Shown one piece after another: positions 49,289 through 63,776 of a stretch of DNA of 64,000 bases. Each line of letters starts with the position of its first letter. The first letter of the stretch is position 1. The stretch lies in NCBI GenBank assembly GCA_000165345.1, contig CM000436.1, forward strand, positions 800,001-864,000, read 5' to 3'. Under the pieces are notes generated by a model. The model had not been told where the DNA came from and made no database searches. It saw nothing but the letters and a program-made list of their open reading frames with translations. The translations under genes were made by a program, and so were the position numbers.

Positions 49289-51121
49289 ATGAATCTTTCT
49301 CGTCCTGGATCATCTAAAGTTAGAACAAACGAGCATTTGAATTTTAATGTGAAAAACAAATTAAATAGAACAAAGATTACGGTTGTTGTCAGAAAACGAC
49401 CTCTTACTGATAACGAAATCTCAAGGAATGATGTTGATGTTGTAGAGGCTGTATGCAACGAAAATACTATTTATGTCCATGAATTGAAAACCAAAGTAGA
49501 TTGTACTAAATATATAGACAAGCATTCATATACTTTTGATCGAGTATATAGTGAGCAAATCAACAATAGAGAACTATATGAAGATATTATACGTCCTTTA
49601 ACTGAAAACATCTTTACCCCGGGATTTAAATGCTCCTGTTTTGCCTATGGCCAAACTGGAAGTGGAAAGACTTATACAATGATGGGAAGTGAAAATACGG
49701 CTTATTCTAATAGCTTACAGAGGAAAACTGAACGTGAACTTGGAATTTTCGAACTAGCAGTGAATAATATTTTTGAGCTTCTTGAACAAAGCGAACATGA
49801 AAATAAAGAAGTTTATGTTTCGTTTTTCGAAATCTACTGCGACAAACTATATGATCTACTTAACAATCAAAAGCTTGTGAGCGCAATGGAAAACAGTAAA
49901 CGTGAAGTAGTTGTCAAGGATCTAACTGAAAGGTTGATAAAAACCCGGGAGGACTTGTTATCTGTGATTAGCAAAGGATTAGAATATAGAAGAACTGCCC
50001 AAAATAGTATGAATGATATGTCATCCAGATCTCACGCAATTCTGCAAATTGAAATTAGATCCAGAATTTTTTCTACCACAAAAGAATCTACTCTTCAATC
50101 TCCCCTTTCTCCTAAATTCATTACATATGGGAAAATGGTATTTATCGACTTGGCAGGAAGTGAGAGGGGTGCAGACACAGTGCATAGCACAAGACAGACA
50201 CAACAGGATGGAGCAGGGATTAATCGCTCTTTACTTGCTCTAAAGGAATGCATTCGAGCTCTACACGACCAACAAAGCAGCCATGTTCCTTTTAGGCAAT
50301 CAGAATTGACCAAGGTTTTAAAAGATGTATTTGTTGGAAATGCACACTCTGTTATGATTGCAAATATAGGCCCTTGTTACTCTTGTTCTGAACAAACTTT
50401 AAACACTCTTAGATATGCTCACAGGGTAAAAGAACTGAGGAAAAAGTCAGTTATCAGATCAGATACTTTTCATAGCGATAAATATTCTTCTAAGCATCCA
50501 CTTTCTAGAAAAACAACTGCGCCTGCAAATATGTCTAAAAAAGATGCATCTTCCAGTAATGAAAGCCCGAGATCATGTACTGAAGAGGAATTTGAGGAAT
50601 CTAATGCTGACACTGAGTTTAGAGAAGATGATTTCGAAATTAGCCAGGAAATGATCAAATATGGAAATGCTGTAGAGCGTAACTTAAGCCAATCGTCTCC
50701 AAACATGCCTGATGAAGAGCATCTGTCAATCAGAAATGAATCTCCACAAATCGAAAAATTATTTGGAAGAAGCAGTATTTTTAACATTCCTGGTATTGGC
50801 ATTGTCAATACCGATACGATTCCGGAGGCTGATCTAAACAAACTAAAAAAATATTTGGGTGAATACTTTATTAAAAAACAAGAAGAACTTGCATCAAACC
50901 ATGCAACGCATTTGGGTGTGCTGTGTGAGTGTTTGAAGGAAGAATCGCTAATACTAAAAGACTTGTTAAAGAAAAACTATAGCAGAGAGAGCTCTAATGA
51001 ATACATCCAAGAATTAAAAAGTTTGGTTACGAGGAAATCAGAATCTTTGGAAAACCTAAAAAAAGAATTGGTAGAAATCGAAGAACTCATATCGATTATG
51101 GATACTATAGGAATCAGGTAA
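49289..51121 (+). CDS. Kinesin motor protein, kinesin-13 (MCAK-like) family
   Basis: The N-terminal neck plus KITVVVRKRPL is typical of kinesin-13. The P-loop reads GQTGSGKTYTM, switch I reads SSRSH and switch II reads DLAGSER. The KVD/KEC-like loop and the motor position near the N-terminal/central region are also consistent. An acidic, S-rich C-terminal tail follows. Confidence 0.85.
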   Translation: MNLSRPGSSKVRTNEHLNFNVKNKLNRTKITVVVRKRPLTDNEISRNDVDVVEAVCNENTIYVHELKTKVDCTKYIDKHSYTFDRVYSEQINNRELYEDIIRPLTENIFTPGFKCSCFAYGQTGSGKTYTMMGSENTAYSNSLQRKTERELGIFELAVNNIFELLEQSEHENKEVYVSFFEIYCDKLYDLLNNQKLVSAMENSKREVVVKDLTERLIKTREDLLSVISKGLEYRRTAQNSMNDMSSRSHAILQIEIRSRIFSTTKESTLQSPLSPKFITYGKMVFIDLAGSERGADTVHSTRQTQQDGAGINRSLLALKECIRALHDQQSSHVPFRQSELTKVLKDVFVGNAHSVMIANIGPCYSCSEQTLNTLRYAHRVKELRKKSVIRSDTFHSDKYSSKHPLSRKTTAPANMSKKDASSSNESPRSCTEEEFEESNADTEFREDDFEISQEMIKYGNAVERNLSQSSPNMPDEEHLSIRNESPQIEKLFGRSSIFNIPGIGIVNTDTIPEADLNKLKKYLGEYFIKKQEELASNHATHLGVLCECLKEESLILKDLLKKNYSRESSNEYIQELKSLVTRKSESLENLKKELVEIEELISIMDTIGIR

Positions 51122-51754
51122 CAAAAATTAATTGTTTGATTGTTAATTTAAGTAATATTCATCTTTAAAGGTTTTAAATTACCCATCTAATGAATTCCCA
51201 CGTTTATATATCTATTTTCAATTGTTAATTTATATAGTGTTCTTACAATTATAGAATTAGGTAATTTAATTAAAAAAATATAAAATAGAAAGAGAAAAGT
51301 TAGAAATGTCATATGCAAGTAGAGTTTTCTATCAATTGAAAGTTCGAATGCATTTAATTTTTTCCAATATAGTACTTTTAAGTCAAGTATTAGTTCAACC
51401 TTTCTCATTTAACAAGCTGTCAGGAGACCAGAACTGAATCCTTTACTTAACTCCTTATTTTTATTATTACAGCATAACTACAGCTCGAGAATCAGATGTT
51501 TTGTTAGAAAACTACCTTTACCAGTGGCAACCAGTATTAGGTATTTCTACAAAAAAATTAGTGATATCCAGACCAAACTTATGGAAGAGAGTGCCCAAAT
51601 TTCCCTATCAAAATTAAAAAGCCCAATTTACAATGCAATATAATGTAAGTTGCAAAAATTGCTTTTTAGAGCAGAATGGATCTAATGCCACAATATAACA
51701 GGTGTGCATTAAAAAAAAAAACAGCGGCAATACTGATTCACCATTTTTTTAAAA

Positions 51755-52876
51755 ATGTCGCTGTTCCAGCCGAGTAATCAAATCAAACTGACCAATGTTG
51801 CAGTTGTTCGCTATAAGTCTCATGGAAAAAGATTTGAAGTTGCGTGCTATAAAAATAAAATTCTGAATTGGAGAAGTGGAGTAGAATGGGATCTTGATGA
51901 AGTTTTACAGATTAGAACAATTTTTGCAAATGTCTCAAAAGGCCAATTGGCGAATTCCGATGATTTAAATACCGTTTTTGGAACAAATAGCATTGATAAT
52001 ATTTGCAAAACTATTCTGAGCAAGGGTGAGATTCAAATATCAGAAACAGAAAGAAGTTATATGCTAGACAAACAATTTACCGATATCTGTCACATGCTCA
52101 ACAGAATGACTGTTAATCCAAAAAATAACTTGCCACTATCCGTAAAAATTATAGAATCTGAACTTAAAGATTCTGGATTTTCTGTATCATTAAATAAAAC
52201 AACTAAGGAGCAAGCACTAAAAGCGTTTGACATATTAAAAAAGCGTATTCCTGATCAGATTGAAAGGGCTAAAATGATGCTAAAGTTATCGGTAGATATT
52301 GTAAATAAACAGAATATAACTAAAAAGCTTAATGAATTTAATGTATTTCCTATTTCATCTGAAGAAAAACATAATACTTATACCATTACGTTTCTTTGTG
52401 AGCCACGATATTATCGAGAAATAGATCAGTTGGATTGCAAATTACTCTTACTTGACTCAAATGTAAAAACTTTGGACAAAAATTCAAATTTTGATAATGC
52501 AGAAGCTATTCAACTTGAACTTTCTAACAAAAGCGATATATTGTTTAATTCAATAACTTCCGACCCCAGGCATATAATTGATAAAAAACTAGAAAAAACA
52601 GAAGTTAGTATTAAAGAAAATGCAAATGCATTTGTAAAACCGATTGTCTCGAGTTTGAATATAGAAGAAAGCAAACGTGAGATTAAGTCTAACATGCTTC
52701 TTTGTCGCAAATGTAATATTCAATTGATGGATCATAATGCGTTTAAACAACATTACCGATCTGAATGGCATATTTTTAATACCAAAAGAAATGCAAGAAA
52801 AATGGAGCCGATTAGTGAGGAAGAATTTCTAGAGCTTCAGCAAGATATAAAGTTGGGATTTCTTGCAGTAGAATGA
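51755..52876 (+). CDS. SBDS (Shwachman-Bodian-Diamond syndrome / Sdo1) ribosome maturation factor with a C-terminal C2H2 zinc-finger extension
   Basis: The N-terminal FYSH domain reads QPSNQIKLTNVAVVRYKSHGKRFEVACYKNKILNWRSG...DLDEVLQIRTIFANVSKGQLANSDDL. The C-terminal extension CRKCNIQLMDHNAFKQHYRSEWHIFNTKRN has C2H2 spacing. Confidence 0.85.
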   Translation: MSLFQPSNQIKLTNVAVVRYKSHGKRFEVACYKNKILNWRSGVEWDLDEVLQIRTIFANVSKGQLANSDDLNTVFGTNSIDNICKTILSKGEIQISETERSYMLDKQFTDICHMLNRMTVNPKNNLPLSVKIIESELKDSGFSVSLNKTTKEQALKAFDILKKRIPDQIERAKMMLKLSVDIVNKQNITKKLNEFNVFPISSEEKHNTYTITFLCEPRYYREIDQLDCKLLLLDSNVKTLDKNSNFDNAEAIQLELSNKSDILFNSITSDPRHIIDKKLEKTEVSIKENANAFVKPIVSSLNIEESKREIKSNMLLCRKCNIQLMDHNAFKQHYRSEWHIFNTKRNARKMEPISEEEFLELQQDIKLGFLAVE

Positions 52877-53333
52877 CTTCAGCCTATTATTGCTGAAATT
52901 CAATATTAAAACTTAAGATTTATTTCTATATATTTTATAATAAGTTAGATCATTTGAATGAAACTTAGAAATAGAAAATAATTACGTTTATATTTGATAA
53001 TCAGTTCAGTTACTGCATAATAAATCTATTCATTGAAAGGACTGTTTCATAATTTGTAGAACTTATGCAAAAAAATTTTAGGAAAAGGATATTTGAACTA
53101 TTGATTCAATCTCCGAGAAAATTCAAGAGCATAAATTTGTGGAAAGAAGTTTAAACACTGTCTTTGATTCAGTTTTATTGTCCGATTATTACTATTTCTA
53201 GACTATAGAACTAAGAAATTTGAATCCATGGAGGAATTTCAGCCATCATGCGCTTAACATCTAAAATTTGAAAATATTAATTCTGTTTTATGTGAATTAC
53301 CCTTTTTGCGTTTTGAAAAAGTTATAAAATTTA

Positions 53334-55280
53334 CTATTCATCATAGAAAAATGTATCTGGCCACAAATTCATAATAGGCTCAAGTCTCAGCTCTAACACA
53401 CTTGTTGGCAGAGTCAAAGAAAAATTGTTTAATACTTTAGGGTGAATAACGCCCATAATCCCAATAACAACTTGCTCATTTAACATTGTTTTTTCAATGT
53501 CAATACTCTTTAAACAGCTATTAAGTTCTACTTTTTGAATGGTAATTTTAACACTTCTAGTCGGTAGAAAAGAGGGGTCATTGACTTCGGAAAGTGAATA
53601 CATACCAATAATATTTGGGTGTATTGAATTGGGTTCATTAAGTGAATATTCTGCAACAAGACCCAGTTTACTTAGTAATTGGTCGAGAAATCCGTGAATC
53701 TCCTCAAGCCCACTACCGCTTGAATTACAATATGCTATTGACACTCGTTTATCATTCCTTGATCCGGATGGAGTATTATTATCCAAAATTACAACATCGC
53801 CCACTTCAAATATCTTTTGTGGTAGAGGCAAACTTTTGTTGGAAGCAATTGTTTTCAATAAAGATTGAATAAGTGTTGTTCTTAAGATTTCAAATTCACT
53901 TGTTTTTGCATCCTTAACTACAACTGGAGGGCAATTCAAGTTGTACTGTACCTCACTCTCGAATAAATTCTTTAACTTAATATTCTCAGTTCTAAATAAG
54001 CTTTCAAAGCAATCAGAGTGTTTGCAAAGAGCCCAGTTTAAAGACTCCGAAATTCCTAAAAGAGAGAGTTCACGTTTAACTTGTTCTGCCATCAAGCTTG
54101 ATTTATCAAGTTCGTAAAAACGTGACTTTTTCAACTCAATGTTATTAAACCCAAAAGAAATTCCAATATCTTCAATTATATCAACAGGATGTAATATATC
54201 TGATCTGTTAATTGGAACAAAACACTTCAAAGATTCACTGTCTTTAATAATTTCTGAGTCTATCATCATTTTGCGAAGCAAACTCTGAGTAACTATTGGA
54301 TCTAGAATTGGGTTGATACCAAGTAGATTTGATGCTTCAGATGCTTTAACCACAAATTCTAACCTCTCTAAATTCGGAGTTACCACATGATAATTACCAT
54401 TTGCTAAAACCTCGTATTTATGCGGAAATGGAGGATAGGTCGAATGTTCGTATTCAACCTTAACAGGTTCAATCTCAAATTTATTTTTACAATACATTGA
54501 GAAAGAAGAAACGATTTGGTTTAAGACTATGGATGCTCTACTATAGTCTGTTGCGGTTACTTCAATAAAAACGTTTTTTGTATTTAATGTGATTTTGCTT
54601 TGACTACCATTTATTAGTGGAGGAACTGATAATACAATTCCATTAGAATCGGTAACAACAGGCAAAAATATTTCGTTTTCCACCAGTGAGACATATTTTT
54701 TTAGCTGCTGATGTTTGTTAAGTAAATCTAATAGTTGGTTTCCATCAACCTCCGTTGAGCCAATCAAAGGTACAAATTTAATTTCACTGTGTGGTTTTGC
54801 ATCATAATAAAATGGGCCTTCAATCATATCAAGATCATGGGTACCAATTGATACCAAAGATCTCTTTCTGCAAATATTATTATGTAATTTTTCTTGGTAA
54901 TCGATAAAACTCTTATAAACATCTTCATTGAAGCTAAGATCTCTTAATATTGCGCATAAAATAAAGGGTCGTACTCTTGCTACATTTCTCTTTACAATGA
55001 TCTTTTGATCATTCCCCTTGGGTTTCAAATTAAATAAAGGAATATTTGAGTTTCCTATAAAACAACCTAATGCAATTACAAGACCCTCTAAGCAGAGAAT
55101 ATCAGGTCTATTTGCAGGTATTTCAATTTTTGCTACATTATCTTTTATTTCCTCATCGAACTCTATACAATCCAATTCCAGACCAAAGTTGAAGCAAACC
55201 TCATCTAACCACTCGCTGGTTACCTCCTTATTTAAATAAGAAGAAAGCAATCTTGTACTTACTGATATAACGGGCATCTT
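53334..55280 (-). CDS. Phenylalanyl-tRNA synthetase beta subunit (eukaryotic/archaeal type)
   Basis: The N-terminus MPVISVSTRLLSSYL matches the FARSB start (MPTVSV..LF). The B3/4 and B5 domain architecture is present. The length is about 650 aa with no stops. The track start at 55331 adds 17 poorly conserved residues, so the likely ATG is at 55280. Confidence 0.8.
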   Translation of the reverse strand, partial: KMPVISVSTRLLSSYLNKEVTSEWLDEVCFNFGLELDCIEFDEEIKDNVAKIEIPANRPDILCLEGLVIALGCFIGNSNIPLFNLKPKGNDQKIIVKRNVARVRPFILCAILRDLSFNEDVYKSFIDYQEKLHNNICRKRSLVSIGTHDLDMIEGPFYYDAKPHSEIKFVPLIGSTEVDGNQLLDLLNKHQQLKKYVSLVENEIFLPVVTDSNGIVLSVPPLINGSQSKITLNTKNVFIEVTATDYSRASIVLNQIVSSFSMYCKNKFEIEPVKVEYEHSTYPPFPHKYEVLANGNYHVVTPNLERLEFVVKASEASNLLGINPILDPIVTQSLLRKMMIDSEIIKDSESLKCFVPINRSDILHPVDIIEDIGISFGFNNIELKKSRFYELDKSSLMAEQVKRELSLLGISESLNWALCKHSDCFESLFRTENIKLKNLFESEVQYNLNCPPVVVKDAKTSEFEILRTTLIQSLLKTIASNKSLPLPQKIFEVGDVVILDNNTPSGSRNDKRVSIAYCNSSGSGLEEIHGFLDQLLSKLGLVAEYSLNEPNSIHPNIIGMYSLSEVNDPSFLPTRSVKITIQKVELNSCLKSIDIEKTMLNEQVVIGIMGVIHPKVLNNFSLTLPTSVLELRLEPIMNLWPDTFFYDE

Positions 55281-55602
55281 AACTGTATACAAACTTAATA
55301 ACTTTGGACACTTAATAAGAGAGAGCGGCACTTTGCAAATAATGAAACTATTTTGAGGTAACAGGGTTTTGTTTCATTTTCTATAACTGTCACATTCAGC
55401 AGGATTTATCATTAGTTACATACCGTCAGCTCCAAATCATCCCAAAGGTATATCAGAAGTTAAAAAAAATACTACTATAGGTGCCAAGACATTAAAATTT
55501 CCCTATCTCCTAAAGAAAGCCGCTAAGCTCCTAGTTTCAATTTGAATTTCTGTATAAATACAAGATTAAAAAGATTCGATGATATTAACCTATATTCATG
55601 AA

Positions 55603-56034
55603 TTAAATATCTTCTATATCTACTCCTTCTGTTTCATCAAACTCAATTCCAACTTCATCGTACCCATCCTCGAAAATATCAGACTCATTGATCTTTGTAG
55701 TTTCAGGAATTTCACCTTTAGATTTCAATGCTCTAGCCTCATCTGGAGTATACTTGAGAATAATATCGCCCTTTGAGTCTTGAAAGTCTCTGAGCGAAAC
55801 TAATACAATATCGCCAGGATTTACCCAAACTTTCTTTCTCATCTTGCCCCTAATATGGCAAAGACGTTTCTGTCCATCAAAGCAATACGCATCAAGTCGT
55901 CCGTTGCCCAACATTCTTTGGACTTGGCCATATTCTTGCCCTTCCTCTTTGAATACTAACTCTCTCTTGTCTCCCTCACTGTCATTTTTCCCTCTCCTAC
56001 GATTTTTACCTCCTTTTCCTTTATTCTTCGGCAT
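55603..56034 (-). CDS. Translation initiation factor eIF1A
   Basis: The N-terminus reads [17 protein letters not shown]. The S1-like OB fold reads [63 protein letters not shown]. The acidic C-terminal tail ends DIEDI. Confidence 0.9.
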
Positions 56035-56341
56035 AATTTTTGGGAGAAAAAATCAAGTATATATTAGCAAAATAATTTATCTTTGCTTTATTTTACTCGA
56101 TATATATAATACTGTATTAATGTAATAATTCAAAAAATTATGTGTTAGTTGATTTCTTAATTTAAATTAAATTTATAAATAATTTTAACTAGTTAAATAT
56201 TTGTACAAATATAATTTTCTTAATTATATTAATAAATTTTTGTTAAATATTAATAAAATATATAAATTAATTTTGAAATTGGACGCCAAAAAAAATATAA
56301 CGGGGTCGCAAATATACGGTAAATTTTAAAGATTTCAAATT

Positions 56342-57292
56342 ATGGAAATATTTGAAAAAAAAATTAACTTTAATACTCTACCACTCAATAAAGTAAGAAG
56401 ATGGATATCCTCAAAAACTGAACAAATTCTTGGAAAAGAAGATGAAATATTTATAGATTATTGCATTAACCAACTTGTATATAAGATTAGAAAGTCTGCA
56501 GCAGAAGAAGAATTACAAATATCGCCTAATGAGCTCATTAAGAATATTGAAGGATTTCTAGGTGAAAGAGCAATTGAATTTGTTAGTGAATTATGGGAAT
56601 ATATATCAAAATTCTCAGGAAATCCCATTAAAATTAAGTCAAGCAAAAACCATATCTCACCAAGAAATGTTGCAATAAAAAAAAATATTTTGCGTTCAAG
56701 TGATATATATAATAGAGATAAAAACAGTCTGATCACAAAAAATTCAAACATTAATAAAGAGATTGCATGCTGTCACATTTATAAAGGCAATGCAAGCTAT
56801 ATAAGTGCTATGAATAATACTGAAGATAGCTCAAAATTCATTCCATTAACTTCTAGGCATTCAAAAGAAAACAAAAGAGCTAGGTCTCTTAGTAGATCAT
56901 TATCTCCGGATCTATATGAATCATATGGCATTAAAAGTTATAAATATGAGAAAATACAAAAAATGGAAGAAAATTCAATTATAGGTGGAATAAGTTGCTC
57001 AAAAGTTTATACGAATAAATCTGAAAAGAAAAGCGAAAGGTTTTCTAATATAAATAAATATATAACTTCCATAGATGAAAAAGCTTCTTTTCCCGATATA
57101 AATCCGTTGAATAATTGTCAAACTGCTCTCGCGGCTCCAACTTCTGAAAAAATGCAAGAGCATAATCTGAGGATGAAAGCATTAGAACTGTTTAAACGAA
57201 AAAATCAAGCAAAAAATTTTAGATCAGAATCCGAAGAAATTCTGCGAGCTCGTGCTATTGAAAAATTTATAAAAAAGAAACCAAAAAATTAA
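56342..57292 (+). CDS. PWI-domain protein (SRm160/SRRM1-like splicing coactivator)
   Basis: The N-terminal PWI domain reads LNKVRRWISSKTEQILGKEDEIFIDYCINQLVYK...ISPNELIKNIEGFLGERAIEFVSELWEYI (compare PWITKRVTEILGFEDDVVIEFIFNQL...LTGFLNGKNAREFMGELW). The C-terminal region is basic and Ser/Arg-containing (KRARSLSRSLSPD). Confidence 0.6.
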   Translation: MEIFEKKINFNTLPLNKVRRWISSKTEQILGKEDEIFIDYCINQLVYKIRKSAAEEELQISPNELIKNIEGFLGERAIEFVSELWEYISKFSGNPIKIKSSKNHISPRNVAIKKNILRSSDIYNRDKNSLITKNSNINKEIACCHIYKGNASYISAMNNTEDSSKFIPLTSRHSKENKRARSLSRSLSPDLYESYGIKSYKYEKIQKMEENSIIGGISCSKVYTNKSEKKSERFSNINKYITSIDEKASFPDINPLNNCQTALAAPTSEKMQEHNLRMKALELFKRKNQAKNFRSESEEILRARAIEKFIKKKPKN

Positions 57293-57485
57293 AAAAATTT
57301 AGTTTCATTATCTCGAGAGTACTAATTTATAAGTTATTCTATTATTGTTTATAATTTTTTCTATAATTCGATAATAAAATTATTATATTCTATGTTTTTT
57401 CTAGAAAAAGTTGTAATTCTTTAATTTTTAATAAAAAATAAATATTAGGGGACTCCATATTTATGATATAATTTAAAACTGTCCC

Positions 57486-60149
57486 ATGTATTGGATTAGA
57501 TGGTTCATCTTTCTATTTATCATATATTCTTCAAGTAGAGACGTGGAAACAAAACCTGGAATTTCGGCATCACATGGTAAAATTATTATTTCCAGCACAA
57601 ATCACCAGTACGACCATAGTCAATTATCTTCAACCTCAAATGGAGTAAATGGAAGAACATTCATTCATGATAAAGGTTTAAATACCCAACCAAGGATTGA
57701 GCCTCCAATTTCTCCTAAGTTGTTGTGTCCAAAGGGTTACGATTTGGTTGATGAGAGTTGTTTTTTTTCTCATATTATTCCTGCAAACATTGAGTGTCCG
57801 GAGGGGTTTGAAGTACTTAAAACAGACCTTAGTGTAGAATGTATACACAAAACCTTAGTATCTGCGCAATTCAATTGCAAGAATGGAACTCCTCCAAAAA
57901 TATTGGATAATAACGCATATTGTCCAACAGAAATAACCGAGAGCCCATCAATAAATTGTCCTTCAGGTACTTTTCAGAAAGAAAATCAATGCATTGTTAT
58001 TGAATCAAAACCTCCAACTTTGAAATGTTTGGATGGTTTTTCTTTGGATAACAATTCTAATTGCAAACAAGTCATTGAATTAAAGCCTTTACTAAACTGC
58101 CCTCCAGATACAGTATTAGAACAAACAACGATGACGTGCGTTACAAAAGTTATTGTAGAACCTTTAGAGGTGTGCCCACCTGGAGCAGTCCCAGTCAAAT
58201 CCAGGGATCTTTCAGACATTAAAGGGTTACTGAACAGGATAGCAATAAATAACGATAATAAATTCAGAAGTTTGCAAGAAATCCCCACATTGGGATCTCT
58301 TGATAAATACAAAAATAATTTATCTTCAGTCGAAGATAATATAAATAATTCTCAAAAAGATAGAAGTTCTTTTAATTATTTTAATGAACAGAAGTATAAC
58401 AATAACAAGTTAGGAAATAAAGATTTTAATAACGAAAATAAAATTATTAACCCTGGATCAGGTAATATTAATGGCCAAATTAAATTGCCATCTAATACCT
58501 CAGATAAAAATAAAACAAATAATTCGGATTCTGTTTCAAATGTACGAGAACAGTTTTATGAAAATGAGAGGCCTATTGGGGTAAATCTTGGTCAGATTGA
58601 TACATTTTATCAGGCACTGTATGATTCAAGTAGAGACTTGAAAAATAATGGTGGAATAATTAATGAATCATTAATTGGAGATGAAATAGTATGTTTAGTG
58701 CTTCAGTTTACAAACCCGAAGGTAGAGTGTCCTCCAGGACTTAGTCTTGGTGAAGATGGAATTTGCGTTCATTCAGATATATTCACACCTAAAAAAACTT
58801 GTGAAGGCGGAATCGAGCCTGATAGTGATAATATGTGCGTAGTAGAAAAGTTACTTCCCGCAGAGGTTGAATGCCCAAAAGATTTTACCTTAGAAATTAT
58901 AACAGGTATGTGCATAAAAAGAGAAATAGAAGAACTTATTTGTCCGGAAGGAACAATATTAAATAGATCCTCACTGAAATGCGAATCTGATCCCAAATGC
59001 CCCGAAGGATTTACTTTGAATAACTCAACTATCAGTTGCGAATATGAGAAATCAGTACCTCCTCATCAGAAGTGTCCTGAAGGGACTGAATATGAAGAAT
59101 CTTCTAGCTCCTGTAAGGTGAAGGACGCACAGCTACCATTAATCATGTGCCCAGAGGGTTATGAACAAAGAGGGGATGATTGCATTTTAGATAAAAGAAT
59201 CCCTGCTTCTTATTACTGCCCACCAGATTATTACCAGACAAATAAAAATGATTGTGTTAAATGGTACCAGGATTACTTGCTTCAATGCCCTCCATTTTTA
59301 GACCTCAAGGATGAGATATTTGCTTATAGAACCGATCTAATTCCTCCGCCTGCGGCTGGGAGAGGACCTGTCCTTCCATATGTGGAATTTGGAAGAAGAT
59401 TACAGAAAATTTCTTACGAAAACTTTAGTCAATTTTCGGAACAAAGAAATATAGATCAAACTAAAAATATTAAAAATAGAAATGGGGTTGTCAATCTCAA
59501 AAACACTAATAGTATGAATTCAAGAAAACAATATGATGACTTGAGTTCATCAACTCCTATTGTAATAAGAAGTTCAAAAACTAGAGGGATGGTCTGTTTT
59601 GGATGGGGAAAAAGATATAAAATGATTGTAAATTGTCCTGAAGGAACTATTTTGTTAAATGAGAAATGTATTGAAACCAAGTTAACTTCACCACAATTTT
59701 TCTGCACAAAAGGTTATACATTTAATGAACTTGACTCAACGTGTATATATGAAGAAAAAGTTAATCCAAACATAGAGTGTCCTGCATATATGAACTTAAC
59801 GTTCGCTAGTACTGGATCCCCTATTTGTATTGGAAGCAGGAGGGAGCCTGCAGAAGTAAATTGTCCTGAAGGATTTGAATGGTTATCCGAAACATTGAAC
59901 TGCCAATCACAGGAATTTTCACAGCCAAGAATTACATGTATTAAAGGGTATTCAATTGTAAAAGAAAGTACTGGGACTTTTTGTAAAAGAACTGATTCGA
60001 TCAAGCCCACACCTAGCTGCCCACCAGAATATAGATACGACGACTTGAATAAAATTTGTATTTACGAAGTAAAACTTCATGAAGTGAGAGAACGAGATGA
60101 AAACTTAAGAAATTCAATTACAAACATTAGAACAAATCTGAATTTATAA
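57486..60149 (+). CDS. Secreted cysteine-rich repeat protein (CPxG two-Cys modules), possibly of the oocyst wall protein (COWP)-like family
   Basis: The signal peptide reads MYWIRWFIFLFIIYSSS. At least 20 modules of about 23-27 aa follow, of the form C-P-[EP]-G-[FY/T]-x-L-x(5-9)-C-x(9-13), e.g. CPEGFEVLKTDLSVEC, CPPGLSLGEDGIC, CPEGTILNRSSLKC, CPEGFTLNNSTISC, CPEGTEYEESSSSC, CPEGYEQRGDDC and CPPDYYQTNKNDC. An Asn-rich low-complexity insertion of about 180 aa sits in the middle. Confidence 0.6.
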   Translation: MYWIRWFIFLFIIYSSSRDVETKPGISASHGKIIISSTNHQYDHSQLSSTSNGVNGRTFIHDKGLNTQPRIEPPISPKLLCPKGYDLVDESCFFSHIIPANIECPEGFEVLKTDLSVECIHKTLVSAQFNCKNGTPPKILDNNAYCPTEITESPSINCPSGTFQKENQCIVIESKPPTLKCLDGFSLDNNSNCKQVIELKPLLNCPPDTVLEQTTMTCVTKVIVEPLEVCPPGAVPVKSRDLSDIKGLLNRIAINNDNKFRSLQEIPTLGSLDKYKNNLSSVEDNINNSQKDRSSFNYFNEQKYNNNKLGNKDFNNENKIINPGSGNINGQIKLPSNTSDKNKTNNSDSVSNVREQFYENERPIGVNLGQIDTFYQALYDSSRDLKNNGGIINESLIGDEIVCLVLQFTNPKVECPPGLSLGEDGICVHSDIFTPKKTCEGGIEPDSDNMCVVEKLLPAEVECPKDFTLEIITGMCIKREIEELICPEGTILNRSSLKCESDPKCPEGFTLNNSTISCEYEKSVPPHQKCPEGTEYEESSSSCKVKDAQLPLIMCPEGYEQRGDDCILDKRIPASYYCPPDYYQTNKNDCVKWYQDYLLQCPPFLDLKDEIFAYRTDLIPPPAAGRGPVLPYVEFGRRLQKISYENFSQFSEQRNIDQTKNIKNRNGVVNLKNTNSMNSRKQYDDLSSSTPIVIRSSKTRGMVCFGWGKRYKMIVNCPEGTILLNEKCIETKLTSPQFFCTKGYTFNELDSTCIYEEKVNPNIECPAYMNLTFASTGSPICIGSRREPAEVNCPEGFEWLSETLNCQSQEFSQPRITCIKGYSIVKESTGTFCKRTDSIKPTPSCPPEYRYDDLNKICIYEVKLHEVRERDENLRNSITNIRTNLNL

Positions 60150-60151
60150 AA

Positions 60152-61933
60152 TTAATTCAAGATAGGATTTTTTTTTCCATTTTTAGATAATTTTTCTAAT
60201 CTTTCTATTTCCAATCTAAAAAATTGTTCAAGTCTATTTTTTGAAAGCTTTTCCTCACCATTCATTAGAGCCTGGACTCTCGCAAGCATAATCCAAGTAT
60301 GCAATGAACTTGCATGAATTAAATTGCAGATATTTGATTTTTGCCTAATATTCACAAATGTTTCCGCGATATAATCTTGTGTTTGCTCATCAAATTCTAA
60401 CATATCAACACAACTGCCTACAATAGAAATAAACAACTTTAAAACAAAGGAGAAGTTTGCTTCAGAACAATTAGGAACCAAGTTTCCAGATTTATTCCGG
60501 GGATTCAAAATACCATTATTTTCTTCAGCATATTTGGCATTCAAACTAATCGAAAGATTACTTTTATTTGCAAAAATACTCTTTTCATTACTAGTTAAAA
60601 TGATGTAGTTTGATTCAGTCTTTATCGGGACTTTGTAGTTCGTAAAACCATAGTTCACATATCCGAAATTAGTCAGTAATGAAATATTGGAAATATTTTC
60701 CAAGCCTTTTTCAGACAATTTTCCATCTTCAAGAGAAGTTTCATTAATTACGATTAAGTTTCTCAAAAGTGGAACTTGAAGAATCCCCGTAACAAATCTG
60801 TCCTCTTCAACATCAAAATATGGGGTTAAACGACCATTATTCAGGGTTGAAATATCGGCATTTATCCAATTTAATCTTGGAAAGTGGTTCAACAAAAATG
60901 AATTTAGTCTTTCAACAAACTCTTTATTACACATAGATATATGCAATACAATCTGAGGTAATTTTGAAATACAGTCTGAGACATTTTCTTCATATGCATT
61001 AAACTCTAACTTTTGCCTACTACATATACATAACAAAATATACTCGGATAATAAATAGTTTCCATCACAAATTTCATTAGCAATATGTTCAATAGAGATA
61101 TTGTATAAGTCTGAAATACCATTTAAATTAGGGCATTTATATTTTACTAATCTTTCAAGAAGCTTGCAAGTTCTAGATGGAGAATAAAACTCCCCGAGAA
61201 ACCCATAATATTCTATTTCCTTGCAGAAAATCGAAGAAAAGTTTGATATACGCTTAAAGGAAATGGCGTGTAGCACAAGTTTTCTTTGAGTTCTTTGGCT
61301 TAACTTGATTAATTTGCTATTGTATAGCTTCTCTTCCATCTTAGATAAATACTCGAAATTGTCTAAATCTTGGAGTTCAACGGTAGTTAATATTTCTAAA
61401 AGTTCATTAATTTTTAGTTTGTTTGTAGTTCCTTGATCAATTTTTAATTTACTTGTAGTGTCAATCATGTAATCAAAGAAAGCCTTTCTAGTTTCAACTT
61501 CAATTGAAGAAGTGCACTCAGGTAATTCTACGCTAAAATCGTAAGTCTTTACTATACATTCATCAAACTTGTGATAAACATTTGAAAAATAGTCTTGATC
61601 GTTTTCTACAAAGTTGTGATTCCAATGTAATCTATTTTCGAACGGAATTGGCACAAATCTGTATACGTTTCTGAAGCTATAGCTGTTCCCGTTACTTCGG
61701 TTCTTTCGAGCCAAATTATTGCAACCATAAAAAATATCAGAACTTGCAGGGCTTCCATGGTCAAGGTCCTCATCTGAGATGAATAGTTCTTGCTCTTGAA
61801 AATACTCAATCATTCCCCTAGCTATAAAATAGCCCTTTATGGGCTGTTTAATTTTTTCATCAGAGATTAGCCTATTTATGTCGCATTTTCCATAATTTAA
61901 TTGTTCAACAAATTTATTTAATAAATTTAACAT
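60152..61933 (-). CDS. MCM-binding protein (MCMBP)-like
   Basis: The 593-aa ORF has an N-terminal MIEYFQEQ segment (compare MCMBP VIEYFKEK). The central region reads NETSLEDGKLSEKGLENISNISLLTNFGYVNYGF (compare [34 protein letters not shown]). The C-terminus reads LHTWIMLARVQALMNGEEKLSKNRLEQFFRLE (compare [32 protein letters not shown]). Confidence 0.5.
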   Translation of the reverse strand: MLNLLNKFVEQLNYGKCDINRLISDEKIKQPIKGYFIARGMIEYFQEQELFISDEDLDHGSPASSDIFYGCNNLARKNRSNGNSYSFRNVYRFVPIPFENRLHWNHNFVENDQDYFSNVYHKFDECIVKTYDFSVELPECTSSIEVETRKAFFDYMIDTTSKLKIDQGTTNKLKINELLEILTTVELQDLDNFEYLSKMEEKLYNSKLIKLSQRTQRKLVLHAISFKRISNFSSIFCKEIEYYGFLGEFYSPSRTCKLLERLVKYKCPNLNGISDLYNISIEHIANEICDGNYLLSEYILLCICSRQKLEFNAYEENVSDCISKLPQIVLHISMCNKEFVERLNSFLLNHFPRLNWINADISTLNNGRLTPYFDVEEDRFVTGILQVPLLRNLIVINETSLEDGKLSEKGLENISNISLLTNFGYVNYGFTNYKVPIKTESNYIILTSNEKSIFANKSNLSISLNAKYAEENNGILNPRNKSGNLVPNCSEANFSFVLKLFISIVGSCVDMLEFDEQTQDYIAETFVNIRQKSNICNLIHASSLHTWIMLARVQALMNGEEKLSKNRLEQFFRLEIERLEKLSKNGKKNPILN

Positions 61934-62333
61934 TTATTTCTGAATATTTAGTACTCAAACATGAAAAAAACAATATAGGTAGCAGCGAAGAATAATCTAA
62001 TTAAAATGTTTGGCAGATAGCAAAATCAATAAAAAGTATATCAAGTACTAACATGTTCAAATTCAGCATGTCAATTTGGGATGATCAAATTATAAGTAAA
62101 ATACCGGTATGTAGGGCGTCTTGTCTTTATATGAGACGGTCGCCATAATTAACACTTGTATAGAGACGAAAGCGTAGTCGCATTTTTTGAACAACATAGC
62201 TTGAAAAGAAATTGTGTAAAGTTGATCTTAAGACAAATTAGCTCGAGTTGTATGCGAATTTTGTCGTACATTATTGCAGTAAATTGTTACACATTGGCGA
62301 TTTTTCTCTATTCTGTCTCTTTGACGAGAGAAA

Positions 62334-63776
62334 ATGGATCCGCTGTCTGCTAATCCTCGTAAGTTTAAAGTTTATGGGTGTGAGTAATATAAATTGTGTA
62401 GTTAAAATTGCCAACCTTGGTTGGTTCAATTTTCTCTGATCAAGTTAAGATTGATCTAATAGAGTGAGTGATGGTAATTTTTGCGAGTCCTCAGCCATAC
62501 ATTCAATTTGACGTTTCTACTGTAATTTATTATTCATACCTTTCTTCTTTTACTTGATTTATTAAATAATTTAGGCAAAGTTTTTGTCGGAAATTTACCA
62601 CCAGGCTATGCTGAACAGGATTTGAAAGATTTTTTTTCCAAGGTTGGTGAAATAAAAAAATTAGAGCTCAAGCAAAGGTTCTGCTTTATTGAATATGAAG
62701 ATGAAACACAGGCAGAAGCAGCTCACCGAGAATTAGATGGGGTTGAATTTGGAGGACAAGTTATTGCTGTTCAACCTCACGATCCAATGGTTAGAAATAA
62801 GGAGACAAATGCTGCTAATAAGCCCCAATATAATCGACCATTACCTTCTGATGGTCGAGGGCCTCCAAGAAAACACTTTCGTGTATGCGTTTTTAACTTA
62901 GATGATAACGCTTCGTGGAGAGATCTCAAAGATTATGGGAGGCAGATAGGCGAAGTCAATTACTCAGCAGTCTTCCACTATCAAGGGCAGAAAGTTGGAG
63001 TTGTAGAGTATCTAACTGTTGAGGAAATGAAGAGAGCACTAGAAGAGATACCTAATCTACCATTTCTGGGAAAATCTATCCGTGTGGAAGAAGATATTGG
63101 GCAGCTTGACCGTGAACTTGCAGCTGCAAACGGGTACGGCGCTAAGAGAAGATCACCGCCTCCATTCTCATCAGGGCCCTATAATACAGGAGGTAGAGCT
63201 CGCGGAAGATACCCTTCGCCTTCAAGGTTTAGAATGCGCAGCAGGTCTCCCAGACGCGATCCATATGATAGGCGTGAACGCTCTCATCACTATCCTGATG
63301 ACCGATATCGTAGAGGGTATGAAGACCGTATTCCACCACCAAGGGAGGACTACTATAGGAGGGATGAAGTAAGGGGCGGATACCCGGGAGAGAGATACCC
63401 CCCACCCCCATATGAAGACCCTAGAGAAAGATATATGCACGGGTCTGAACGCTTTGATGACAGGTATCCAGGGAGAGCGGTCCCGTTTGATAGGAGAAGC
63501 CCATCTCGCAGTGGAATAGGAGTTGGGCCAATTGGTGGGAATGGTAGTATGAACGTACAAAGGAGTGGCCATTATGGAGGCTCCACCAGAGGCTACTACA
63601 GAGATGATGATCGCGATCGAGAGCGTGATCGAGAGCGTGATCGTAGATCAGCCAATGATCAATATTCTAACTCTTATTATTTAAGGGATGATAGAGATCC
63701 TCCAGGTTCTAGACCATCGGGTGGATACGTATCTAGTGGAGTTCCATCTGGTGGCCGTCCGAACGTTGCATATTAA
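62334..63776 (+). CDS. SRSF1 (ASF/SF2)-like splicing factor. Two RRMs plus an R-D/E/Y/S-rich C-terminal domain. Two exons: 62334..62358 and 62575..63776, with the intron at 62359..62574.
   Basis: The track ORF 62622..63776 lacks the RNP2 motif. The upstream exon ATGGATCCGCTGTCTGCTAATCCTC|GTAAGT plus the acceptor AATTTAG at 62574 restore it, giving MDPLSANPRKVFVGNLPPGYAEQDLKDFFSKVGEI.... The second pseudo-RRM carries SWRDLKDY (the SWQDLKD signature of SRSF1). The C-terminus contains RSRSPRRDPYDRRERSHH and RDRERDRERDRR repeats. Confidence 0.75.
62359..62574 (+). other. Spliceosomal intron (216 nt) of the SRSF1-like gene, the longest intron in the window
   Basis: GTAAGT at 62359 and TTTAG at 62570-62574 restore the RNP2 motif RKVFVGNLP. 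The intron contains in-frame stops. Confidence 0.7.
63607..63645 (+). repeat. Tandem 12-nt repeat (cgagagcgtgat)x~3 encoding the RDRERDRERDR dipeptide repeat in the SR protein tail
   Basis: A direct read of gatcgcgatcgagagcgtgatcgagagcgtgatcgtag. Confidence 0.8.

What the first reader, a model, noticed from the sequence alone, without database searches (positions are those of the whole stretch)
57486..60149. 887-aa secreted protein built from about 20 CPxG two-cysteine modules with a central Asn-rich insertion
A clear signal peptide is followed by a highly regular array of modules of about 25 aa, each beginning C-P-[E/P]-G-[F/Y/T]-x-L and closing with a second Cys 9-13 residues later. These occur in two blocks separated by a low-complexity N/K/S-rich region of about 180 aa. 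The CP(P/E)G-containing Cys modules are reminiscent of the type I repeats of Cryptosporidium oocyst wall proteins, but the strict two-Cys periodicity and the long insertion are distinctive. It could be an uncharacterised structural wall or surface protein with an intermolecular disulfide lattice.
Basis: partly seen in the sequence, partly recalled or inferred. Interest (0 to 1): 0.6.

Follow-up and report, generated by a model that had tools for sequence, protein, structure and literature searches.

The report
Cryptosporidium oocyst wall protein COWP4
This gene is the already named Cryptosporidium parvum oocyst wall protein 4 (COWP4), a secreted cysteine-repeat protein recently shown to sit at the oocyst's exit seam and to be needed for parasite release, so the finding is real but not new.

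Summary
The ORF at 57486-60149 (+) is real. It is 100% identical over all 887 residues to C. parvum oocyst wall protein 4 (COWP4, cgd8_3350), and the published primer, peptide and codon details all match.

There are 44 cysteines at a 10-16 residue spacing, which resolve into 22 two-Cys modules. The details are off. There are three Cys blocks and two insertions (172 and 102 aa), not two blocks and one insertion. Both insertions sit inside a module, between its two cysteines.

The COWP guess was correct. A COWP4-only profile retrieves COWP1, TgOWP3 and chromerid and gregarine OWPs. The two-Cys period and the long insertions are family traits, not distinctive features.

The protein is characterised: named in 2004, localised to the oocyst suture in 2025, and knocked out in a 2026 preprint, where oocysts fail to excyst.

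A confident 7-module model (pLDDT 82) has no significant PDB analogue.

Two side observations may be new. An R-x-L-[G/A/S/Q] motif is enriched in the large loops of alveolate OWPs and is invariant in both COWP4 loops. The same module also occurs in bacterial TraN proteins.

Verdict: already known; low interest.

The parts
57486..60149 (+). COWP4 (cgd8_3350) coding sequence, 887 codons plus stop, no intron
   Evidence: ORF. 100% identity and coverage to 'oocyst wall protein 4 [C. parvum Iowa II]'. The same gene and neighbours lie on a 1.34-Mb chromosome record, CM109968.1.
57293..57485 (+). 193-bp AT-rich upstream intergenic region (presumed promoter and 5'UTR)
   Evidence: This is the gap between the stop of the PWI-domain gene and the COWP4 ATG. 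PMC1779779 lists 197 bp upstream for COWP4 and reports a shared 12-bp COWP upstream motif, whose sequence is not given in the text. Its function is inferred.
57486..57551 (+). Signal peptide, aa 1-22 (MYWIRWFIFLFIIYSSSRDVET)
   Evidence: It contains the most hydrophobic 15-aa stretch of the protein. The published signal-peptide-truncated construct starts at aa 23, and its primer matches 57552-57573 exactly. The cleavage site is inferred, not measured here.
57726..58175 (+). Cys block 1, aa 81-230: modules 1-6 plus the C1 half of module 7 (13 Cys)
   Evidence: AF2 model of aa 74-236 with pLDDT 82.1. Each module runs C-P-x-G, strand b1, turn, strand b2 starting at C2-1, Pro, strand b3.
58176..58691 (+). 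Loop-out 1, aa 231-402 (172 aa) inside module 7. It has a conserved N-flank (231-270), a variable N/S/K-rich core (271-371) and a conserved C-flank (372-402).
58266..58277 (+). R261-S-L-Q264 motif at the end of the conserved N-flank of loop 1
   Evidence: R, L and Q are invariant in 10 Cryptosporidium orthologues.
58692..59288 (+). Cys block 2, aa 403-601: C2 half of module 7, modules 8-15, and the C1 half of module 16 (18 Cys). It contains the published antibody epitope, aa 440-451.
   Evidence: In the first AF2 model, C403 is followed by the standard b2-Pro-b3 pattern (low confidence).
59289..59594 (+). Loop-out 2, aa 602-703 (102 aa) inside module 16. It has a conserved N-flank (602-640), a variable core (641-685) and a conserved C-flank (686-703).
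59394..59405 (+). R637-R-L-Q640 motif at the end of the conserved N-flank of loop 2
   Evidence: Invariant in 10 orthologues. It is the only segment that hhalign aligns between the two loops.
59595..60059 (+). Cys block 3, aa 704-858: C2 half of module 16 plus modules 17-22 (13 Cys)
   Evidence: Cys845 is encoded by TGC, as stated in PMC12548878.
60060..60146 (+). Hydrophilic C-terminal tail, aa 859-887, conserved in orthologues, with no GPI or TM signal

Best explanation
The ORF is Cryptosporidium parvum COWP4 (cgd8_3350), one of the nine-member COWP family of secreted, cysteine-periodic oocyst wall proteins.

Shown here:
- The protein is a signal peptide followed by 22 tandem two-Cys modules with the consensus C-P-x-G-[FYT]-x(6-11)-C-x(6)-P-x(4).
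- Each module is predicted to form three short beta strands.
- The modules are homologous to the type I repeats of COWP1, TgOWPs and other alveolate OWPs.
- Two large, partly low-complexity loops are inserted into the C1-C2 turn of modules 7 and 16.

Inferred:
- Each module is stapled by one intramodule C1-C2 disulfide, 22 in all, which uses all 44 Cys.
- The three 'clusters' would therefore form one continuous elongated beta-ribbon rod with two disulfide-closed loop-outs.

From the literature:
- The mRNA is made in female stages.
- The protein appears after fertilisation in a single vesicle-like body.
- It is deposited specifically at the suture (the exit seam) on the inner face of the wall, where it binds COWP6.
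- Without it, oocysts form but cannot excyst or infect, and they lose viability in storage.

On this reading, COWP4 is a structural and organising component of the suture rather than of the bulk wall.
For: Identity:
- 100% identity and coverage to NCBI 'oocyst wall protein 4 [C. parvum Iowa II]'.
- The same gene with the same neighbours (PheRS-beta, eIF-1A, PWI, MCM_bind, RRM) lies on a 1.34-Mb chromosome.
- The published cloning primer matches 57552-57573.
- The published epitope EGGIEPDSDNMC = aa 440-451, and Cys845 = TGC.
- The published description '887 aa, 44 Cys (4.96%), three clusters' matches.

Family:
- The orthologue profile finds 253 proteins at E<=1e-3. They include CpCOWP1 (2.5e-22), TgOWP3, and Chromera, Vitrella, Colpodella, Selenidium and Cardiosporidium 'oocyst wall proteins'.
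- The COWP4-only di-module HMM scores 209 bits with 36 domains on COWP1, against at most 6.8 bits on shuffles.

Architecture:
- Module table.
- All 44 Cys are conserved in the full-length orthologues across the genus; the C. canis sequence is truncated and lacks three.
- AF2 model of 7 modules at pLDDT 82.1, all-beta.

C1-C2 pairing:
- The array starts with a C1 and ends with a C2, so only intramodule nearest-neighbour pairing uses all the Cys.
- The C1-C2 segment resembles the C5-C6 hairpin of EGF: Pfam cEGF is hit by 12/41 family segments, best E 1.5e-7.

Function:
- Suture localisation (PMC12548878).
- Suture-specific immunolabelling, post-fertilisation appearance, knockout with 0% excystation and no infectivity, and COWP6 binding (bioRxiv 10.64898/2026.05.05.722909).
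- Late and female transcript.
Against: - The functional data come largely from one 2026 preprint that has not been peer reviewed.
- The two localisation studies differ slightly: 'suture and small puncta / wall and suture' in one, 'strictly suture' in the other.
- The transcript is used as a pre-fertilisation female marker, while the protein is reported only after fertilisation. This is unexplained.
- Disulfide connectivity was not observed. I could not read model coordinates, and the strand register of the model does not by itself place C1 opposite C2.
- The preprint describes the loops as separating clusters, not as loop-outs of a continuous rod.
- Signal peptide cleavage was not computed with a dedicated predictor.
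Confidence: 0.9

Rival explanations
1. COWP4 consists of three separate cysteine-rich rods joined by flexible, functionless low-complexity linkers. Its cysteines mainly form intermolecular disulfides that weld a wall lattice.
For: - The Cys fall into three visible clusters.
- The loop cores are variable in sequence and length among species and are rich in N, S and K.
- The literature hypothesises both inter- and intramolecular disulfides.
- The inner wall is reported to be highly cross-linked.
Against: - Both gaps start at a C1 (CPPG, CPPF) and end at a C2 that is followed by the normal 11-12 aa linker. Without the loop closure, blocks 1 and 3 each have an odd 13 Cys.
- Each loop has 30-40 aa flanks that are strongly conserved across the genus, so the loops are not mere spacers.
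- An even count of 22 C1/C2 pairs leaves no spare Cys.
- COWP4 is removed from walls by mild pronase faster than COWP6. This fits an exposed protein rather than a buried lattice element.
Confidence: 0.25
2. The two disulfide-closed loops are regulated cleavage sites. A protease recognises the invariant R-x-L-Q motifs, either a PMV/ASP5-type aspartyl protease in the secretory pathway or an excystation protease. Nicking, with or without reduction of the C230-C403 and C601-C704 bridges, would mature the suture or unlatch it.
For: - R261-x-L-Q and R637-x-L-Q are invariant in 10 orthologues. Each sits at the boundary between the conserved flank and the variable core, 31-36 aa after C1.
- In alveolate OWP-family hits other than COWP4 and COWP1, 19 of 30 large loops carry RxL, against 6.2+/-2.0 in shuffles.
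- Across all non-COWP4/COWP1 hits, R.L ranks first of the 400 a.b patterns (z=5.0, family-wise P about 0.001).
- There is no enrichment in the periodic arrays or in bacterial TraN loops.
- The residue after L is G/A/S/Q in 23/31 cases, against 31% expected (P=8e-7). Comparable motifs are published: the TEXEL is RRL and the PEXEL is RxLxE/Q/D. Their P1' preference is from my own knowledge.
- Excystation has been linked to proteases and reducing conditions.
- COWP4 is the more protease-accessible suture protein.
Against: - No cleavage has been observed. The preprint reports a single band of the expected size with an antibody to aa 440-451, although reducing conditions are not stated.
- The C. 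parvum protease closest to PMV (CpASP2) behaves like PMX and its substrates carry a different motif.
- Known PEXEL/TEXEL sites are usually near the N-terminus.
- The motif was found post hoc, although it was re-tested on held-out proteins.
- RxL could instead be a sorting or binding motif.
Confidence: 0.15
3. The protein is a generic EGF- or growth-factor-receptor-type adhesive surface protein that works mainly as a ligand or adhesin rather than as a wall component.
For: - Database names for COWPs include 'growth factor receptor cysteine-rich domain containing protein' and 'EB module'.
- The preprint annotates a central GFR-CR domain.
- There are weak cEGF, EB and TIL Pfam hits in family segments.
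- The paralogue COWP6 binds host cells.
Against: - COWP4 itself hits no Pfam family above threshold; the best is CBM_14 at E=0.41.
- No PDB sequence relative was found.
- COWP4 is not detected on sporozoites or on intact oocyst surfaces, and it localises to the suture.
Confidence: 0.03

Closest known systems
[quoted passage not shown]
   Same: It has a signal peptide and no TM segment. Its arrays are built from the same alternating C1 (CPxG) / C2 module. The COWP4 profile hits it at E=2.5e-22 in 13 stretches, and the COWP4 di-module HMM scores 209 bits with 36 domains. Its large insertions start at CPPG and each of them carries an RxL.
   Different: COWP1 is 1622 aa with 124 Cys. It has a strict 65-aa, 6-Cys type I super-repeat and type II repeats with His-rich spacers. 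COWP4 has no 3-module super-period, no type II repeats and only 9 His. COWP1 is spread over the inner wall, whereas COWP4 is at the suture.
COWP2 and COWP3 (suture-enriched) and COWP6 (binding partner)
   Same: They belong to the same family. COWP2-4 are the first suture markers. COWP6 binds COWP4 in BiFC and far-western assays.
   Different: COWP2 and COWP3 carry type II domains according to the literature. COWP6 is 538 aa with 40 Cys, is made before fertilisation in wall-forming bodies, and is also secreted by sporozoites. I did not obtain the sequences of the C. parvum paralogues.
Toxoplasma OWPs (e.g. TgOWP3) and OWPs of chromerids, colpodellids and gregarines
   Same: They have the same module and are significant profile hits (TgOWP3/Hammondia OWP3 P0050 at E=1.6e-17; Chromera, Vitrella, Colpodella, Selenidium, Cardiosporidium). 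Many have large loops with RxL[GASQ].
   Different: They have different lengths and loop positions. No clear one-to-one orthologue of COWP4 was found outside Cryptosporidium; the next best hits after the orthologues are at E about 1e-50 or weaker.
C-terminal (C5-C6) hairpin of EGF-like domains (Pfam cEGF, PF12662) and the 'growth factor receptor Cys-rich' superfamily
   Same: The C-P-x-G-[FY]-x-L...C segment resembles the C5-C6 hairpin. 12/41 family segments hit cEGF, best E 1.5e-7. The C. canis COWP4 carries a precomputed PF12662 hit. Databases use the GFR-CR label.
   Different: There is no 6-Cys EGF unit with C1-C3 and C2-C4 bonds. C. parvum COWP4 gives no EGF, Furin-like or TNFR Pfam hit. 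No significant structural match to EGF, ErbB or TNFR chains was found. Each module adds a constant 11-aa Pro-containing linker that forms further strands.
Cys-rich repeat arrays of bacterial F-type conjugation protein TraN (PF06986)
   Same: 14 of 148 non-orthologue hits are TraN-like; five were scanned against Pfam and all score above the PF06986 cut-off. They hold modules such as CPSGYSDVDGRCRKTLIVPKTAQ, that is C-P-x-G-Y-x6-C-x6-P-x4, the same layout as COWP4 modules. E-values reach 1.6e-19.
   Different: They are bacterial outer-membrane mating-pair stabilisation proteins with a TraN C-terminal domain. Their large loops show no RxL enrichment. Whether the shared module reflects common descent, transfer or convergence is open.

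Membership tests
COWP/OWP family (Cryptosporidium oocyst wall proteins) | Identity with a named member (cgd8_3350, COWP4) | tested here: met
   100% identity over 887 aa. Primer, epitope and codon-845 details from two papers match. Same chromosomal neighbours.
COWP/OWP family | N-terminal signal peptide and no transmembrane domain | tested here: met
   There is a hydrophobic N-terminus, no other TM-grade stretch and a hydrophilic C-terminus. The literature states the same. This is a heuristic only, as no SignalP was available.
COWP/OWP family | Tandem arrays with a Cys every 10-12 residues (type I repeat pattern) | tested here: met
   40/43 gaps are 10-16 aa and the mode is 12, far beyond shuffles.
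COWP/OWP family | Sequence similarity of the repeats to COWP1/TgOWP type I repeats | tested here: met
   (COWP1 at E=2.5e-22 and 209 bits; TgOWP3 at E=1.6e-17).
COWP/OWP family | 65-aa, 6-Cys type I super-repeat as originally defined on COWP1/COWP8 | tested here: not met
   There is no lag-3 excess of module similarity in COWP4. 22 modules and 44 Cys are not multiples of 3 and 6. COWP1 shows the exact 65-aa period. This is a property of some members, not a requirement for membership.
COWP/OWP family | Type II repeats with His-rich spacers (COWP1-3 only) | tested here: not met
   COWP4 has only 9 His in 887 aa and no 12,11,8,5,12 Cys pattern. The literature says type II repeats are restricted to COWP1-3, so their absence is expected.
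COWP/OWP family | Expression in female or zygote stages and localisation in the oocyst wall | not testable with these tools
   Literature only: suture localisation, late and female transcript, post-fertilisation protein.
EGF-like domain proteins | About 40-aa unit with 6 Cys (C1-C3, C2-C4, C5-C6) recognised by EGF family models | tested here: not met
   COWP4 gives no EGF-type Pfam hit at E<=1. Family segments give only weak cEGF (half-domain) hits. The unit has 2 Cys, not 6.
TNFR / growth-factor-receptor Cys-rich (furin-like) fold | Structural match of the module array to solved TNFR, ErbB or insulin-receptor CR domains | tested here: inconclusive
PEXEL/TEXEL substrates of PMV/ASP5-type aspartyl proteases | An R-x-L-x-[EQD] or R-R-L motif | tested here: met
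   RSLQE (aa 261) and RRLQK (aa 637) are invariant in their R, L and Q residues.
PEXEL/TEXEL substrates of PMV/ASP5-type aspartyl proteases | Demonstrated cleavage after Leu by the protease | not testable with these tools
   A single band of the expected size is reported, with the redox state of the gel not stated. No RxL-specific protease has been shown in Cryptosporidium.

The most novel reading that the evidence does not exclude
The large loops inserted into the Cys arrays of alveolate oocyst wall proteins carry a conserved R-x-L-[G/A/S/Q] short linear motif. It is invariant in both COWP4 loops, present in all four large COWP1 loops, and found in 19 of 30 loops in other alveolate OWPs. The proposal is that this motif is a PEXEL/TEXEL-like processing site. 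In COWP4 the two sites lie inside loops that would be closed by the inferred C230-C403 and C601-C704 disulfides. Cleavage would then give a three-chain, disulfide-held protein of 26, 42 and 28 kDa. The integrity of that protein would depend on two S-S bonds, which would make a protease-plus-reductant latch for opening the suture at excystation.
Probability: 0.12. Interest if true: 0.65.

Novelty: already known. Interest (0 to 1): 0.15.

Why it matters
The gene matters biologically. The oocyst suture is the gate through which Cryptosporidium sporozoites leave, and COWP4 is reported to be essential for excystation and transmission.

That knowledge already exists, so re-finding the gene adds nothing by itself.
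- The protein reads as one continuous array of 22 modules with two loop-outs, rather than three clusters joined by linkers.
- A confident module model has no solved structural analogue.

It also adds two leads that I could not find in the searchable literature:
- The loop-specific RxL[GASQ] motif across alveolate OWPs suggests a concrete, testable route to how walls or sutures are matured or opened.
- The same two-Cys module occurs in bacterial TraN proteins.

Tried and rejected
- The single-module alignment was too short for the word-indexed protein search. The di-module profile found only 12 candidates and nothing significant there, which wasted a capped search. The exhaustive representative search and local HMMER answered the question instead.
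- MAFFT staggered overlapping di-modules, so alignment A3 was discarded.
- The first AF2 model (aa 398-606, 10 orthologues) was poor (pLDDT 59.5) and its Foldseek hits were meaningless. A 41-sequence family alignment of block 1 gave pLDDT 82.1.
- hhalign of loop 1 against loop 2 gave no homology beyond the 7-residue RxLQxI match, so the idea that the loops are duplicates of each other was dropped.
- I tested whether large insertions preferentially start at C1-type Cys across the family. They do not: 24/51 against a 43% background, P=0.31.
- I tried to infer disulfide pairing from the parity and termini of Cys runs across the family. The result was inconclusive.
- The founding paper (Templeton 2004, PMC321576) is not held in the library. 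The type I and type II definitions were taken from PMC2867935 and PMC4514997.
- The sequence of the 12-bp COWP promoter motif is not given in the text of PMC1779779, so the upstream region was not scanned for it.
- No DNA-level tandem repeat underlies the modules.
- I rejected a bacterial or phage origin. The window has 30% GC, dense long ORFs and eukaryotic housekeeping neighbours.


Full report
**Observation.** The window holds an uninterrupted ORF at 57486-60149 (+) of 887 codons. Its product has 44 Cys (4.96%), against 0-2.8% for the other long ORFs of the window. Of the 43 Cys-to-Cys gaps, 40 are 10-16 residues, against 8.2+/-2.5 in 20,000 shuffles (maximum 19). The dipeptide CP occurs 18 times against 3.2+/-1.7. 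The periodic cysteine pattern is therefore real and far beyond chance.

**Module structure.** The cysteines alternate between a C1 type (followed by P and/or with G at +3) and a C2 type, which gives exactly 22 modules.
- C1-C2 loops are 10-15 aa.
- The C2-to-next-C1 linker is exactly 11 aa in 17 of 22 modules and mostly has a Pro near positions 7-8. This linker is the most regular feature.
C1-P occurs in 17/22 modules, G at +3 in 16/22, CPxG in 11/22, and the strict CP[EP]G[FYT]xL in 3/22.
- No DNA tandem repeat underlies the array.
- Modules are only about 25-35% identical to each other.

There are three Cys blocks (81-230, 403-601, 704-858) and two Cys-free stretches (231-402, 172 aa, N/S/I/K-rich; 602-703, 102 aa), not two blocks and one insertion. 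Both stretches begin at a C1 (C230-PPG, C601-PPF). Both end at a C2 (C403, C704) that is followed by a normal 11-12 aa linker. They therefore read as loop-outs of the C1-C2 turn of modules 7 and 16. In the first, low-confidence model, C403 is followed by the same strand-Pro-strand pattern as other C2 residues.

**Identity.** The protein is 100% identical over its full length to 'oocyst wall protein 4 [Cryptosporidium parvum Iowa II]'. Orthologues of 52-87% identity exist in nine other Cryptosporidium sequences.
- The same gene sits on a 1.34-Mb chromosome record between PheRS-beta, eIF-1A and a PWI-domain gene upstream, and MCM_bind and RRM genes downstream. The window has the same neighbours.
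- The gene-specific part of the published COWP4 cloning primer matches 57552-57573, which is codon 23 onward.
- The published antibody peptide EGGIEPDSDNMC is aa 440-451, and Cys845 is encoded by TGC as stated in PMC12548878.
- A 2026 preprint describes COWP4 as '887 aa, 44 cysteines (4.96%), three clusters'.

**Family test.**
- COWP4 itself hits no Pfam family; the best is CBM_14 at E=0.41. It has no sequence relative in the PDB.
- A profile of the ten orthologues, searched exhaustively against 1.84 billion representatives, found 253 proteins at E<=1e-3. All of them match through the Cys blocks.
- The named hits include CpCOWP1 (E=2.5e-22, 13 stretches), Toxoplasma/Hammondia OWP3, Cardiosporidium OWP3, and 'oocyst wall proteins' of Chromera, Vitrella, Colpodella, Selenidium, Blabericola and Rhytidocystis.
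- A di-module HMM built from COWP4 alone scores 209 bits with 36 domain hits on COWP1. Composition-preserving shuffles of the same proteins never exceed 6.8 bits.
- The published type I domain is 65 aa with 6 Cys spaced 10-12 apart. COWP1 shows Cys gaps of 11,12,11,10,11,10 repeating, which sum to 65. That is three two-Cys modules.
- Across the family, the C1-like signature occupies one phase of the Cys series (0.86) and not the other (0.02).
- The two-Cys unit is therefore the family's unit and is not a peculiarity of COWP4. What COWP4 lacks is the 3-module super-period and the type II/His-rich repeats, which are restricted to COWP1-3.
- Large Cys-free gaps inside arrays are also common: 51 in 148 hits. 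In COWP1, three of the four large gaps start at CPPG.

**Structure.**
- With ten orthologues only, AF2 gave a poor model of block 2 (pLDDT 59.5).
- With a 41-sequence family alignment of block 1 (aa 74-236), AF2 gave pLDDT 82.1.
- Each module runs C-P-x-G, a 3-4 residue strand, a tight turn, an 8-9 residue strand that starts one residue before C2, the Pro, and a 3-residue strand before the next C1.
- The only local resemblance is to the C5-C6 hairpin of EGF. Pfam cEGF is hit by 12 of 41 family segments, best E 1.5e-7. Database labels such as 'growth factor receptor cysteine-rich' agree with this.
- I infer one C1-C2 disulfide per module, for three reasons. The array starts with C1 and ends with C2. 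All 44 Cys are conserved. The cEGF analogy implies it.
- If so, C230-C403 and C601-C704 close the two loops and the three clusters form one continuous rod. I could not read coordinates, so this remains an inference.

**What it does (from the literature).**
- COWP genes peak 48-72 h after infection. The COWP4 mRNA is used as a female-gamete marker and belongs to the first wave of wall genes in females.
- Tagged COWP2-4 localise to the suture (PMC12548878).
- The 2026 preprint reports suture-specific immunolabelling on the inner face and protein detectable only after fertilisation, in a single round body and then a curved line.
- It also reports faster removal than COWP6 by mild pronase, and direct binding to COWP6.
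- Its knockout makes oocysts that show 0% excystation, do not infect mice, and lose viability in storage.
- The best-supported mechanism is therefore a secreted, disulfide-stapled rod that organises the suture. Identity and architecture were shown here. Function comes from the literature. Disulfide topology is inferred.

**Loops and the RxL motif.**
- Each COWP4 loop has a conserved N-flank of about 40 aa, a variable low-complexity core, and a conserved C-flank.
- In both loops the N-flank ends with an invariant R-x-L-Q (aa 261-264 and 637-640), 31-36 aa after C1. This is the only segment that hhalign aligns between the two loops.
- All four large loops of COWP1 carry R-x-L-[A/G].
- I re-tested on held-out proteins with COWP4 and COWP1 removed. 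R.L ranks first of all 400 a.b patterns in 47 large loops: 20 loops against 7.9+/-2.4, z=5.0, family-wise P about 0.001.
- The enrichment is loop-specific. Loops have 32 occurrences against 10.8+/-3.1. The periodic arrays have 163 against 158.7+/-12.3.
- The enrichment is confined to the non-TraN hits, which the named ones indicate are alveolate OWPs: 19 of 30 loops against 6.2+/-2.0. TraN loops have 1 of 17 against 1.6.
- The residue after L is G/A/S/Q in 23 of 31 cases, against 31% expected (P=8e-7).
- The motif resembles the PEXEL (RxLxE/Q/D) and the TEXEL (RRL) cleaved by PMV and ASP5.
- Against a cleavage role, a single COWP4 band of the expected size is reported, although gel redox conditions are not given.
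- Also against it, the C. parvum protease closest to PMV behaves like PMX and its substrates carry a different motif.
- No paper in the searchable library mentions both 'oocyst wall protein' and 'TEXEL'. I treat this as an unexplained, possibly new, side observation.

**TraN.** Fourteen of the 148 non-orthologue hits are TraN-like by a C-terminal HMM built here. The five scanned against Pfam all score above the PF06986 cut-off, and sources name two of them conjugal transfer protein TraN. They hold modules such as CPSGYSDVDGRCRKTLIVPKTAQ, the same C-P-x-G-Y-x6-C-x6-P-x4 layout as COWP4. E-values reach 1.6e-19. A literature search found no paper that links TraN with oocyst wall proteins. Whether this reflects homology or convergence is open.

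**Verdict.** The COWP interpretation is right. The claims of distinctiveness and of being uncharacterised are wrong. The feature is an already known and recently well-characterised gene, so interest in the finding as given is low. The RxL loop motif and the TraN resemblance are the only items that might be new.

Noticed in passing
window 58266-58277 and 59394-59405; also P0026 (COWP1) aa 718, 920, 1092, 1454; P0050 (TgOWP3/Hammondia OWP3) aa 172, 187; P0036, P0017 (Vitrella); P0104, P0110: An R-x-L-[G/A/S/Q] motif is strongly enriched in the large Cys-free loops of alveolate OWP-family proteins (19/30 loops against 6.2+/-2.0 in shuffles, with COWP4 and COWP1 excluded). It is not enriched in the periodic arrays or in bacterial TraN loops. 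The motif is PEXEL/TEXEL-like and I found no mention of it in the searchable literature.
   Followed up: yes
P0081 aa 351-465, P0155, P0109, P0112, P0131, P0037, P0039 (hits): Bacterial conjugation TraN proteins (the five scanned against Pfam all score above the PF06986 cut-off) carry arrays of the same C-P-x-G-Y-x6-C-x6-P-x4 two-Cys module as COWPs. They are hit by the COWP4 profile at E values down to 1.6e-19. Homology versus convergence is unresolved.
   Followed up: partly
window 60152-61933 (-): A convergent MCM_bind (PF09739) gene has its stop codon at 60152-60154, two bases after the COWP4 stop at 60147-60149, so the 3' ends must overlap. This fits the report that endogenous C-terminal tagging of COWP4 failed, probably because the construct disturbed the close neighbouring gene (PMC12548878).
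   Followed up: partly
literature on cgd8_3350: COWP4 mRNA is used as a marker of female gametes in vitro at 40-48 h, but the protein is reported as undetectable in unfertilised females and appears only during oocyst formation. This suggests translational repression of a maternal mRNA. Translational repression in females is discussed in PMC13657310.
   Followed up: no
window 49289-63776: The surroundings are densely packed, intronless eukaryotic housekeeping ORFs at about 30% GC: kinesin, SBDS, PheRS-beta, eIF-1A (about 55603-56034, -), a PWI-domain protein, MCM_bind and an RRM protein. This is typical of Cryptosporidium chromosome 8. No other Cys-periodic ORF is present in the window.
   Followed up: partly
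P0026 (CpCOWP1) aa 1-700: The type I region of COWP1 has an exact repeating Cys-gap series of 11,12,11,10,11,10 (65 aa), whereas COWP4 has no 3-module super-period. The '6-Cys type I domain' is therefore a COWP1/COWP8-style higher-order repeat of the universal two-Cys module.
   Followed up: partly
P0017/P0177 (Vitrella brassicaformis, 866-868 aa): A Vitrella 'oocyst wall protein' of nearly the same length as COWP4 (47 Cys) has one 120-aa loop carrying RELQQ. It is among the best non-Cryptosporidium hits (E=1.3e-28) and may be a distant counterpart of COWP4.
   Followed up: no
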